Assembly: GCA_965287045.1 (NCBI GenBank) | Contig: OZ336883.1 | Location: 31,744,001 to 31,808,000, forward strand | Direction: 5' to 3' | DNA: 64,000 bases | Source of the DNA: Carcharhinus amblyrhynchos | Lineage: Eukaryota | Shown: positions 1 through 3,000 of the stretch, piece by piece | Layout: every line of letters starts with the position of its first letter | Numbering within the stretch: position 1 is the first letter of the stretch | Position numbers: made by a program

Positions 1-3000
1 TTCTCATTCCGCACTGTATCTTTAATCCAAGAAAATACTCCTCACCTTGAGGTTTTCATAGTTAAGGTCAGTTTTGTGCTTGTCAGTAGGTTTATAGCCA
101 CCGTGACGGTCTCGAATTACTGGGTCAAAGAGGTCCTTGAAAACCTCATAGGATTCTTCATCACCAGCAACACAACCTACTGTCATAATAAATGGGTGAC
201 CTGTACAGGGAGAAAAGGGGGACAGATCCATCTTAATGCACGTAGACCTTCCGTTAATTGATACATGCAAGGTTAATAATTAAAAATCAGCCGTTCAGTG
301 CGAGAAGCCGTGTTTATTTTAACTAGAAGACAAGCATAAAGCAGCATGTCTTCAAAAATATTTGAACTAACTTTTTGTTTTGACTGGGAGCAACTTTTTC
401 CAATATTATGATTGGGATGGATCACTGATCATTACATCTTCTAACGTATTTACTTTAGAGTGAAATATACATGTTTGCAAAGGCATAAAAATATCAAGTG
501 GTTATATCACCAGGGGTAGTTTTACGTCTGGTGATAACGTGTGGCGATTTATCGCAGACAAAGCATCCCGGAGCCGACCACATTGTAAAGTCTCTCCACC
601 CAATCTGATGTGATCAATAATCTCAATTTAAAATGTTTTACCGGGATTATCAACCCCTGTCTGAATTACATCATCCAAAGTGAAGCCACTGGGGGTGGAT
701 TTGTTTTGGAGTTTCTTGTAGAGGTCCAGAGTGAGCACCTTGGCCATGTGGTTGTTGTGTTTGCTCAGGTCGGGGAACTCTTCCTGGGCCGACAGCCTCT
801 TTATCTTTAGCGGGGCCATGGCGGGGGGAGGCTCACAGCTACACGGAATGAAAACCAGATACAACAATGAGACGGATCACACATCACATTCGCCATCCAC
901 TATCCCTCCTTTTCACAGAAGGTCGCTGGCCGTGGACATCTCAATCCATTCGGGGAGTGGGGTAGTATCTGAAAGCCATGAGGCTAAAACCAAGGACAAC
1001 CATTATAAAAAAAAGAGGATTATCACTTTTTTAAAAAGTTAACGATCCTCGCTGGTTTAGTTTGTAGGCAGGCTACTAACACAGCCGACAAAACAAAGTG
1101 GGGGGTTTGGGGTCAATATTTTTCCTCATTGGTGATTCCCTGGTGGCCTTTGGAAAGCAACACCTTCTGTAAACAAGGGGAGAGCAGACGGCTCGTCCGA
1201 ATGCGGCTTTTACCTGGGTTGTCAACCCCGGTCTGAATGACATCGTCAAGGGTAAATCCGCTGGGGGTCTGCTTATCTCGCAGCTTGCTGTACAAGTCCA
1301 GGGTCAGGACTTTAGCCATGTGGTTGTTATGTTGGCTTAAATCCGGGAATTCTTCCTTAGCGGAATATTTCATCTTCAGAAGGTTGTGGCTGTTGCTGAA
1401 TGGCATGGTTACCGCTTTACTGCAACACAAACAAGAGGGTTTTATGTATACACACACAAATAAATCCGATTTAATGCGGATTCCTGGTGTTAAGACTTTG
1501 AATTGTTTTGGTCTAACTGATGTAAATAATGCTTATTAAGAATTTAAATTGAGTCCCATTTGCAGATTTTTAAAACAAAACATGCCATTCAGCAAGAATG
1601 CGAGTGAATTCGAAAACTAATTAAATAATCCGACATTTACAAAGTGCTTGAAATAGATAATCTAAAAGCAACTTCTGAGTGAATGCGGCAGTCCTTTGCA
1701 TCTTTCAGACGCTCTAATCCCCTCGCAATCAGAGCAATGACTAAACACGATTTATTTTTTTAAAAAAATATAAATCTCGACATTTAGGGACGTTAAACAC
1801 CTTTCTTGCCCGTTCCATCCTTCTAGAAAGGCGATTTCATTGCCGATTAATTAATAATAACCCCTTGACATCCGCGTTACAGAAGACCTTATTGGATTCT
1901 CAAACAACCTTACGTTTACGTAAATTCCTCGTCCTTCCTGACCCTTTCGCATTGTATTCCAAGCAGAGAATTTAAGGGCAATTGAAGTACAGCAGCTATG
2001 TGTTAGGTCCAGATTAGAGCCAATGGATTAACACAAATACCATTCGTGATCCTTTCCAATACAAATAGCCGGCCGGGGTGGGGGAAGAGAGGAGAAAGAG
2101 CTTTTCTTTCGTTTAAGTGCAAATAAACGATATTTGAATGCTAATTCACAGATGAAAAACATTTTACTAACTAGGAAATTGCCATTGAGGTAGCAGAAGG
2201 TCCATAAAGCGCCACTCAAATATATTTCTTCAACACTGGTTTAGCAATCAATGCTCAAGAGGATTCTTTCAGAGCCACCATACATCCAAATGGATTATTT
2301 TTTTCTAGGTCGGTAATGATGAGCATTTGGTTATTAAATTAACAGTACAACCATCGCTTAAAAAAAACCTTGGTTAATTCCGAAACCAATTTTAATTCTG
2401 CTTCTCAAACGATATCTAATTTATTTAAATTAGATGTGTTAAATTTGCATTTCTGCTAGATTCTTCATCGCAAATGAAGATGCATGACTTTGAAATTAAG
2501 AGCATGGCAAAAATAAGAATTTGCAATTGCATTGTAGCGGCCAGGTTTTTAGTTTGCCGCAATGACCTTACCTGGATGGTGGGAATTTTGGAAGAAACCA
2601 GTATTAATTCTCAGCCTGAGCTGGGTTTTTTTTCCCCTCTGCCTGTATCCGCGCCACACTGATTGGTGTCCGGCCACTCCGCACCTTCCCATTGGATTAT
2701 ATAGCGCAGCAGAGCCGCGCTCCAATTGGCTGCTTCATTGCAGCCCCATTCACTGGATGGCCTGTCAATCAAAGAGCACGGCTGGAGGGGCGGCGACGTC
2801 ATCACCCGGCGCCCCAGGACAAGGCGGTGACGTGATTAGTGTGCGCCCAGAGTCAATTCGGTGGAGGTGAGTTTTTTTCTCCAGGCTTATCCCCACGTGC
2901 GTTAGAAGAGGCTTTTGGATTCAGGAGCGCTGAAAGCCCGTAAGGTTAGCCAGGCATTCATAGAATCCCTGCCGCGCGGGTGGAGGCCATTCGGCGCATC

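What the first reader, a model, noticed from the sequence alone, without database searches (positions are those of the whole stretch)
642..1419. Shark CKB has two tandem, mutually exclusive first coding exons (Ba/Bb-type N-termini)
Seen: two intact homologous exons, each with its own acceptor, ATG and phase-1 donor. They are 44/50 aa identical in the core but have different N-termini ([14 protein letters not shown] vs MAPLKIKRL) and many synonymous differences, indicating an old duplication under purifying selection. Established: chicken B-CK yields Ba and Bb isoforms by alternative second exons, and mammals use only the MPFSNSH form. Inference: the dual-exon design predates the chondrichthyan/osteichthyan split rather than being avian. 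The short form lacks Ser6, reported as an AMPK site in BCK, so it may be regulated or localised differently.
Basis: partly seen in the sequence, partly recalled or inferred. Interest (0 to 1): 0.75.

Follow-up and report, generated by a model that had tools for sequence, protein, structure and literature searches.

The report
Twin alternative start exons of CKB
A brain-type creatine kinase gene carries two intact, very old copies of its first coding exon, matching the pair long known in chicken and also present in bony-fish gene models, so this way of making two enzyme variants looks far older than birds.

Summary
On the minus strand lie two homologous first coding exons, 2a (1419..1214) and 2b (838..642). 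Each has an AG acceptor, its own ATG and a phase-1 GT donor, and exon 3 follows at 200..46. The cores are 44/50 identical in protein, but synonymous sites are saturated (pS 0.94, pN 0.11).

Exon 2b is the counterpart of the downstream alternative exon of chicken B-CK. It has the same 59-codon length, the same order (2a then 2b) and a shared N-terminal pattern. All 25 2b-type rows form one clade (100/99), and a shark-only duplication is rejected (AU p 0.004-0.005). With the N-terminal residues removed the signal is weak (69/62, p 0.37).

Three named teleost models (Coregonus, Anabarilius, Cyprinus) and 114 of 115 bird models carry both exons in one gene model, so the design is not avian.

Three things remain unverified:
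- that the window is from a shark;
- any transcript evidence in this species;
- which exon is "Ba" and which "Bb".

This is a new member of a known kind and of moderate interest.

The parts
2662..2729 (-). Promoter-like stretch: TATATAA at 2703-2697, with CCAAT at 2729-2725, 2695-2691 and 2666-2662.
   Evidence: Read directly. No eukaryotic promoter tool was on hand, and the transcription start was not determined.
2572..2675 (-). Putative non-coding exon 1. Only its 3' end at 2572 (CCAG|GTAAGG) is defined; the 5' end is a guess about 28 nt below the TATA. There is no ATG between about 2675 and 2572.
   Evidence: Read; donor printed. This is an inference with no transcript data.
1578..1595 (-). 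Intron-1 arm of an inverted repeat, 17/18 complementary to the start region of exon 2a.
   Evidence: 2 sites in 64 kb; 0 of 100 shuffles gave 2. In the fold the helix grows to about 25 bp and covers the 2a acceptor; z -2.87, and 2 of 200 shuffles did as well. There is no comparative support.
1214..1419 (-). Exon 2a, the upstream alternative first coding exon: 13-nt leader, ATG at 1406-1404, 64 codons plus 1 base, N-terminus [14 protein letters not shown].
   Evidence: It is 94% identical to the pigeon CKB 2a segment.
839..1213 (-). Intron of 375 nt between 2a and 2b. It is long enough to be spliced, so steric exclusion is not expected here.
   Evidence: Coordinates. No similarity to the other flank.
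642..838 (-). Exon 2b, the downstream alternative first coding exon: 19-nt leader, ATG at 819-817 in the context CCCCCCGCCATGG, 59 codons plus 1 base, N-terminus [12 protein letters not shown].
   Evidence: orthology. In the 2a frame it reads VSLPPPWPR then a stop.
46..200 (-). Exon 3, common to both forms ([17 protein letters not shown]...). It continues Pfam PF02807 at positions 45-67. The rest of the gene lies beyond the window edge.

Best explanation
This is the 5' part of a B-type (brain-type) cytosolic creatine kinase gene built like the chicken B-CK gene. A non-coding exon 1 is followed by two homologous, alternative first coding exons and then the common exons.

The proposed mechanism is as follows. 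Exon 1 is spliced to either 2a or 2b. Each supplies its own AUG and the first 64 or 59 codons, and joins exon 3 in phase 1. The two subunits differ in their first 14 versus 9 residues and at 6 of the next 50. The catalytic body is the same.

Taking both exons would be unproductive, because 2b is 197 nt long and read in the 2a frame it stops after 9 codons. Taking neither removes the start codon.

The 2a/2b pair arose once, before the lineage of this window, the ray-finned fishes and the birds diverged, and both copies have been kept by selection since. The 2a type keeps the N-terminus shared with M-type CK; 2b is the derived copy.

Shown here: the exon anatomy, the homology, the constraint, and the orthology of 2b with the bird and teleost 2b.

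Inferred: the splicing pattern in this animal, mutual exclusivity, and any difference in regulation or localisation.
For: Anatomy and reading frames.

Both exons match PF02807 positions 1-41 with equal scores, and exon 3 continues the domain.

Constraint: pN 0.112 against pS 0.942 over 52 codons, and the flanking introns are unrelated.

Start context of 2b is CCCCCCGCCATGG. Both alternative donors are GTAAAA, while exons 1 and 3 have G at +5.

Counterparts elsewhere:
- 114 of 115 bird CKB models among the 120 listed hits hold 2a then 2b, including the PIR record 'creatine kinase chain Bb - chicken'.
- Coregonus, Anabarilius and Cyprinus models hold 2a, then 2b, then one exon 3.
- The eel 'testis isozyme isoform X1' model joins a 2b-type start to GHPFIM.
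- All 24 other 2b rows have the same register to VDNP. 22 begin with Met at codon 1; Anabarilius lacks that residue and P0262 has Phe there.

N-terminal 12 residues of the window's 2b: 9/12 identical to Albula, 8/12 to Anguilla and Coregonus, 5/12 to chicken, and at most 3/12 to any of the 16 2a or CKM rows.

Column 46 is Q in 13 of 13 2a rows, E in 3 of 3 CKM rows, and never Q in the 25 2b rows.

Trees: 2b clade 100/99 and 98/97; AU against a window-only duplication p 0.0043 and 0.0052.

B-type identity: 2a sits with tetrapod CKB 2a and apart from CKM. GCD14/TRMT61A exons lie head-to-head upstream; that this gene neighbours CKB in mammals is recalled, not tested.
Against: No transcript of this species was available, so the use of 2b, exon 1, and exclusivity are all unproven.

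On the 50 core columns alone the 2b clade has only 69/62 support and the window-specific duplication is not rejected (p-AU 0.371). In the core, the window's 2b is no closer to other 2b rows (32-41 of 47) than to 2a rows (35-42 of 47). Orthology therefore rests on about 12 residues, one core column, the exon length and the exon order.

The bird and teleost 'double' proteins are faulty automatic models. They show that the two exons lie side by side in that order, not how they are spliced.

The taxon of the window is unverified. Its exon ORFs are not in the protein collection, and the closest 2b relative is 78-80% identical.

The 375-nt intron between 2a and 2b allows double inclusion. Exclusivity would have to rest on regulation and on decay of the stop-containing product.
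Confidence: 0.78

Rival explanations
1. Lineage-specific duplication: exon 2 was duplicated independently in this lineage, and the likeness to the chicken and teleost downstream exon is convergent.
For: The core-only tree cannot reject grouping the window's 2a with its 2b (p-AU 0.371). Within the 47 core residues the window's 2b is as close to 2a rows as to 2b rows.
Against: With all columns the grouping is rejected (p 0.0043 and 0.0052). The exon has the same 59-codon length, the same order, and 8-9 of 12 N-terminal residues shared with teleost 2b against 3 of 12 with its own 2a. Column 46 is never Q in 2b. Synonymous sites between the two copies are saturated, so the copy is very old in any case.
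Confidence: 0.05
2. Silent relic: 2b is an inherited exon that is no longer used in this species. It is intact only because too little time has passed since it fell out of use.
For: No transcript evidence could be obtained. No close relative of this 2b was found in the protein collection, so conservation among near species is unknown.
Against: The reading frame is open. The ATG has a near-ideal context, and the acceptor has a pyrimidine tract and the donor is GT. pN stays at 0.11 while pS is saturated. The Pfam score equals that of 2a. The exon is kept in birds (50 of the 117 two-exon proteins, 114 of them bird models, carry one identical 2b sequence) and in teleosts.
Confidence: 0.1
3. Alternative first exon: 2b is transcribed from its own start site inside the 2a-2b intron and is not spliced from exon 1. 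On this reading the choice is made by promoters, not by splicing.
For: The eel isoform model begins 7 codons upstream of the usual 2b Met (MENITIS...), which could reflect a separate 5' end. Several teleosts carry whole tandem genes that start with a 2b-type exon: Albula, and Bagarius with three units.
Against: 2b in the window is preceded by a proper acceptor (TTTTCATTCCGTGTAG|C). The title of the chicken paper says the two forms arise by alternative splicing (seen in a reference list). No TATA or CCAAT element was noticed when reading 839-1213.
Confidence: 0.1

Closest known systems
Chicken B-creatine kinase gene with two alternative N-terminal exons (Wirz et al. 1990, J Biol Chem 265:11656). 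Only the title was seen, in the reference list of PMC10357257; the paper is not held.
   Same: One gene holds an upstream [18 protein letters not shown] exon and a downstream 59-codon MA.L...RL-type exon, each with its own ATG, both ending ...VDNP plus one base. This is seen in the PIR chicken record P0059. The first 14 residues of 2a are identical between the window and chicken.
   Different: The spacer between the two exons is 375 nt here. In the bird models it is read through as about 31 residues (mode, 47 of 107 measured). Only 5 of the first 12 residues of 2b are shared with chicken. The K-R-L-S pattern of the window is absent from all 8 bird rows (7 lack Ser-10; Cuculus has it after Q-R). 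Which chicken name, Ba or Bb, belongs to which exon was not verified here.
Teleost 'creatine kinase, testis isozyme' gene models: Anguilla XP_035237032.1 (P0386), Anabarilius ROK15763.1 (P0388), Coregonus CAB1335303.1 (P0390), Cyprinus KTF88122.1 (P0515).
   Same: A 2a-type exon is followed by a 2b-type exon before a single exon 3. The 2b N-termini are the closest to the window's (8-9 of 12), including the basic-basic-x-Ser pattern.
   Different: In cyprinids Leu stands where the start Met should be. In Albula and Bagarius the 2a-type and 2b-type starts belong to separate whole CK units fused in one automatic model. The gene's relation to CKB (orthologue or paralogue) was not resolved here.
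M-type creatine kinase exon 2 (bird KCRM fragments P0405 and P0436; Torpedo chain 1vrp).
   Same: It has the same 64-codon exon with an MPFSN.HN start. That makes the 2a type the ancestral form.
   Different: No second copy is known from these data. Column 46 is E, not Q.

Membership tests
Cytosolic creatine kinase (ATP:guanido phosphotransferase, N-terminal domain PF02807) | Match to the family profile above the curated cut-off. | tested here: met
   2a scores 59.0 bits, 2b 59.5 bits and exon 3 44.2 bits against a cut-off of 25.7. Profile positions 1-41 and then 45-67 are covered.
B-type (brain-type) rather than M-type CK | The sequence groups with named CKB proteins and not with CKM. | tested here: met
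   2a is 94% identical to the pigeon CKB 2a segment and sits with the bird and turtle CKB rows, apart from the CKM rows (branch 80/97). Column 46 is Q as in 13/13 2a rows, against E in 3/3 CKM rows. Only exons 1-3 are in the window.
Chicken-type B-CK dual first-coding-exon design | Two tandem homologous exons, each with an acceptor, its own ATG and a donor in the same phase, upstream of one common exon. | tested here: met
   There are exactly two copies in the window.
Chicken-type B-CK dual first-coding-exon design | The downstream exon is the orthologue of the chicken downstream exon. | tested here: met
   2b clade 100/99 and 98/97; AU p 0.0043 and 0.0052. Same length and order. The result is inconclusive when only the 50 core columns are used (69/62, p 0.371).
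Chicken-type B-CK dual first-coding-exon design | A non-coding exon 1 is spliced to either exon, and the two are mutually exclusive in mRNA. | not testable with these tools
   No RNA data or eukaryotic genome collection was on hand. The only support is indirect: 2b read after 2a stops after 9 codons.
Chicken-type B-CK dual first-coding-exon design | Two protein isoforms are present in tissues. | not testable with these tools
   No proteomic or transcript data. No solved cytosolic CK chain (0 of 10 among the 19 PDB hits) covers residues 1-7 of 2b.

The most novel reading that the evidence does not exclude
The 2a/2b pair is a splice module that dates to the ancestor of jawed vertebrates, and it has had three different fates.

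- It was kept as one gene with two alternative start exons in cartilaginous fishes, birds, salmonids and cyprinids.
- It was split between separate tandem genes, one starting with each exon type, in some teleosts (Albula, catfish). This would be a clean natural case of splice isoforms becoming separate genes.
- It was lost in mammals.

The 2b form trades the Ser6 site for a basic-basic-x-Ser site (K-R-L-S10), so a different kinase would control it.
Probability: 0.35. Interest if true: 0.6.

Novelty: new member of a known kind. Interest (0 to 1): 0.45.

Why it matters
Creatine kinase B is a much-studied enzyme of local ATP buffering. Its N-terminal region lies at the dimer interface and carries a reported regulatory phosphosite (passages of PMC8070484 and of bioRxiv 10.64898/2026.08.04.742861).

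In the held literature the two-exon design is tied to chicken only. Eight searches found nothing on it outside chicken.

The same pair in a distant fish-like vertebrate and in teleosts would turn a bird curiosity into an ancestral vertebrate feature that mammals lost. It would also point to a conserved second isoform whose function has hardly been examined, and for which no structure exists.

It also flags a recurrent annotation error: 114 of 115 listed bird models string both exons into one protein.

Tried and rejected
1. Exon 3 search against longer proteins. It was meant to name the species, but the 120 listed rows were nearly all multi-domain CKs (flagellar and other), whose summed scores are higher. 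No taxon was obtained.

2. The first exon 2b search. The listing was filled by bird models that hit twice, so single-hit proteins below 157 bits (484 of 604) were never seen. Annotated 2b-type isoforms of cartilaginous fishes may therefore exist unseen. They could also be hidden inside 90% clusters headed by the longer 2a form.

3. A query of only the 20 distinctive N-terminal residues.

4. The 'near' length search. It found 199 exon-sized fragments but none closer than 78% over the full length, so it gave no conservation data for near relatives and no spliced fragment of this species.

5. Exact look-up of the window's exon ORFs. None is in the collection.

6. The protein atlas on the TRMT61A exon. 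It returned only prokaryotic clusters and no taxon.

7. Cluster look-ups of 13 unnamed 2b ORFs. Two gave a name (Coregonus, Cyprinus).

8. Net charge as the conserved difference between the forms. I rejected this: -1 against +1 here, but -2 against -3 in chicken and -1 against -1 in Coregonus.

9. Rfam and tRNA scans of the window found nothing.

10. Steric exclusion of the two exons. I rejected this for the window because the intron between them is 375 nt.

11. The joined (spliced) coding sequence was not built, searched or folded. Every search was exon by exon.
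Full report
**What is in the sequence**

The gene runs on the minus strand and leaves the window at base 1.

- A promoter-like stretch holds TATATAA at 2703-2697 and CCAAT at 2729-2725, 2695-2691 and 2666-2662.
- It is followed by a stretch without ATG that ends in a good donor, CCAG|GTAAGG, at 2572. It is read from the sequence only.
- Exon 2a is 1419..1214: acceptor TTGTGTTGCAG|T, 13-nt leader, ATG at 1406-1404, 64 codons plus one base, donor CAG|GTAAAA.
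- Exon 2b is 838..642: acceptor TTTTCATTCCGTGTAG|C, 19-nt leader, ATG at 819-817 in the context CCCCCCGCCATGG, 59 codons plus one base, donor CCG|GTAAAA.
- Exon 3 is 200..46 and reads [17 protein letters not shown]... The split codon is G|GT with either upstream exon.

Both alternative exons match Pfam PF02807 positions 1-41 with the same score (59.0 and 59.5 bits). Exon 3 continues at positions 45-67.

A mechanical repeat search finds the duplication: 636-792 against 1208-1364, 157 nt, 75% identical. tblastn finds exactly two copies of exon 2 in the 64 kb.

**How old the duplication is and how constrained the copies are**

The proteins are 44/52 identical by BLASTP and 44/50 over the last 50 residues.

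At the DNA level 45 of 156 core bases differ, 32 of them at third positions. 27 of the 44 codons for identical residues differ. By Nei-Gojobori the synonymous proportion is 0.94, beyond what a distance correction can handle. The non-synonymous proportion is 0.112. The 100 bases on either side of the exons are 29 and 31 of 100 identical without gaps, which is the random level.

The copy is therefore very old, has not been homogenised recently, and both copies have been held by selection on the protein.

**Relatives elsewhere**

I searched exon by exon. I did not build, search or fold the joined coding sequence.

Exon 2b against longer proteins gave 604 hits, of which 120 were listed. By their names, 115 of these are bird CKB models. 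114 of the 115 contain two exon-2 segments, always the MPFSN type first and the MAQLNN type second (113 by the strict pattern, plus one that starts MTQLNN). These are faulty automatic models that string both exons together. They show position and order, not splicing. Among them is the PIR record 'creatine kinase chain Bb - chicken' (P0059).

The bird 2b segment is remarkably constant. 50 of the 117 two-segment proteins (114 of them bird models) carry one identical sequence. There are 38 distinct versions of 2b against 76 of 2a, and many of the 2b variants differ only at the mis-spliced end.

Cluster look-ups then gave named teleost records:
- Coregonus CAB1335303.1, Anabarilius ROK15763.1 ('Creatine kinase, testis isozyme') and Cyprinus KTF88122.1 each read a 2a-type exon, then a 2b-type exon, then a single exon 3.
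- Anguilla 'creatine kinase, testis isozyme isoform X1' joins a 2b-type start directly to GHPFIM.

The search of 50%-identity representatives and the 'near' length search gave many unnamed exon-sized ORFs of the 2b type that run on into intron.

In the right-justified alignment all 24 other 2b rows keep the same register to VDNP. 22 of them begin with Met at codon 1. The Anabarilius segment lacks that residue and P0262 has Phe there.

**Test of orthology**

The tree rows were as follows.
- Birds: I took 8 of the 114 bird double models, chosen by name for spread before any tree was built.
- Teleosts: the Coregonus, Anabarilius, Albula and Anguilla rows. Cyprinus (P0515) was fetched only after the first two trees were built and is in no tree.
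- Other named rows: one turtle 2a ORF and three rows labelled M-type.
- Unnamed: 12 of the 31 unnamed ORFs fetched.
- Left out: ORFs without a start Met or with an insertion (P0277, P0302, P0259, P0313, P0422), P0261, two-domain linkers (P0240, P0296), divergent starts of unknown type (P0327, P0336, P0337, P0341, P0342, P0357, P0364, P0358), a 2a-type double (P0239) and bird duplicates (P0241, P0411).

With 41 rows and all 64 columns, the 25 2b rows are one side of a branch with support 100/99. Forcing the window's 2a and 2b together costs 26.4 log-likelihood units, p-AU 0.0043. With only the 29 named rows and a MAFFT alignment the figures are 98/97 and p 0.0052.

Against this, with the first 14 columns removed the 2b clade has only 69/62 support and the window-only duplication is not rejected (p 0.371).

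The signal is thus concentrated in a few characters:
- The first 12 residues. The window's 2b shares 9/12 with Albula, 8/12 with Anguilla and Coregonus, 5/12 with chicken, and at most 3/12 with any of the 16 2a or CKM rows.
- One core column, which is Q in 13/13 2a rows, E in 3/3 CKM rows and never Q in the 25 2b rows.
- The shared length and the shared order.

I take these together as good evidence for a single origin, with the weakness stated.

The M-type rows share the MPFSN.HN start with 2a (10-11 of 17 residues for the two full-length rows). So 2a keeps the ancestral N-terminus and 2b is the derived copy.

**How it most likely works**

One transcript is spliced from exon 1 to 2a or to 2b, and each exon brings its own start codon. 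This gives two CK-B subunits that differ only at the N-terminal end.

If both exons were taken, the 2a frame would read VSLPPPWPR and then stop inside 2b. That product should be short-lived. The 375-nt intron between the exons does not by itself forbid this. In the bird models the spacer is only about 31 residues when read through (mode, 47 of 107 measured). Both alternative donors lack G at +5, while those of exons 1 and 3 have it. On general knowledge, weaker donors are usual for regulated exons.

One candidate switch turned up. An 18-nt stretch of intron 1 (1578-1595) is 17/18 complementary to the Kozak-AUG region of 2a (1393-1410). The pattern occurs only at these two places in 64 kb, and 0 of 100 shuffles gave two sites. 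In the predicted RNA fold the helix grows to about 25 bp and buries the 2a acceptor, in both the minimum-energy and the centroid structures (z -2.87; 2 of 200 shuffles did as well). It could favour 2b when formed. There is no comparative support, so this is a lead only.

**What differs between the two forms**

- The short form has no counterpart of residues 1-5 of 2a, and so has no Ser6. A review passage reports Ser6 as an AMPK site that affects localisation and not activity (PMC8070484). A 2026 preprint marks it as a putative phosphosite and places the N-terminal domain at the dimer interface (passages).
- The short form also lacks Met12. Whether Met12 serves as a second start was not seen. 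Only the title of Soldati et al. 1990, on alternative ribosomal initiation in chicken B-CK, was seen in a reference list.
- 2b instead has K-R-L-S10. A basic-basic-x-Ser/Thr pattern is present in 9 of the 25 2b rows, all fish-like, and in 0 of the 8 bird rows. Its reading as a basophilic-kinase site is from general knowledge.
- Net charge does not differ in a conserved way.
- None of the 10 cytosolic CK chains among the 19 PDB hits aligns to residues 1-7 of 2b. No 2b-type isoform has a solved structure.

**Comparison with what is known, and novelty**

The kind is known. The title of Wirz et al. [quoted passage not shown] I saw only that title, in a reference list; the paper is not held. For that reason I use the positional names 2a and 2b, and I did not verify which is Ba and which is Bb.

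Eight full-text searches found nothing on this exon pair outside chicken. The library lacks most subscription journals. Database annotation such as the eel 'isoform X1' shows that pipelines already predict such forms. I rate the finding as a new member of a known kind.

**What stays open**

- The taxon. Nothing contradicts a cartilaginous fish. In the trees 2b sits outside both the bird and the teleost groups. But no tool named the organism. If the window were from another non-teleost fish or an amphibian, the dating would shrink to the common ancestor of bony vertebrates. The teleost and bird data support that dating on their own.
- Transcripts of this species, the start of exon 1, and the loss in mammals were not tested.
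- I took no contig for human.

**Side observations**

- TRMT61A-like (GCD14) exons lie head-to-head upstream of the gene, on the plus strand.
- Some teleost models fuse whole tandem CK units whose starts are of different types.

Noticed in passing
window 1393-1410 and 1578-1595 (RNA of the minus strand): An 18-nt inverted repeat, 17/18 complementary, pairs intron 1 with the Kozak-AUG region of exon 2a. In the predicted fold it extends to about 25 bp and covers the 2a acceptor (z -2.87; 2 of 200 shuffles did as well). It is a possible splice-choice or translation switch. It has no comparative support.
   Followed up: partly
window 18146-18514, 33189-33503, 45051-45416 (+ strand): Three ORFs match Pfam GCD14 (tRNA m1A58 methyltransferase, TRMT61A-like) at profile positions 1-48, 48-139 and 134-247. 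This is a gene transcribed divergently from the CK gene, with introns of about 12-15 kb. That it neighbours CKB in mammals is recalled, not tested.
   Followed up: partly
window 2906-3265 and 52850-53206 (+ strand ORFs): Two stop-to-stop ORFs share a near-identical peptide stretch (...PWSCEAAVLT...). This suggests copies of an interspersed repeat. It was not classified.
   Followed up: no
window 37639-38022 (- strand ORF): The ORF contains ...LKVDKLPGP...LLKEAREEIA..., which from recall looks like the start of a LINE reverse-transcriptase ORF. Pfam gave no match at E 0.01 or better.
   Followed up: partly
P0038 (Albula glossodonta), P0387 (Bagarius yarrelli), P0095 and P0201 (pipefishes): These automatic models fuse two or three whole CK units. 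In Albula and Bagarius the first unit has a 2a-type start and the following unit or units a 2b-type start. The two exon types may have been shared out between tandem genes in some teleosts. The unnamed fragment P0296 runs from the C-terminus of one CK unit straight into the next, so some of these may be true two-domain proteins.
   Followed up: partly
P0515 (Cyprinus carpio), P0388 (Anabarilius), unnamed P0259, P0313, P0422: In the carp model and the three unnamed cyprinid-like ORFs, Leu stands in 2b where other species have the start Met (..K-L-A-R-L-T-I-K-Q-R-P..). The Anabarilius model starts one residue later. In the carp model the spacer between 2a and 2b is read through as 26 residues without a stop. 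How, or whether, this exon is translated there is unclear.
   Followed up: no
one search hit list (bird CKB models): 114 of the 115 listed bird CKB protein models contain both alternative exons in series, and only 3 of these also hold exon 3. This is a systematic annotation error caused by the short, open spacer between the exons.
   Followed up: yes
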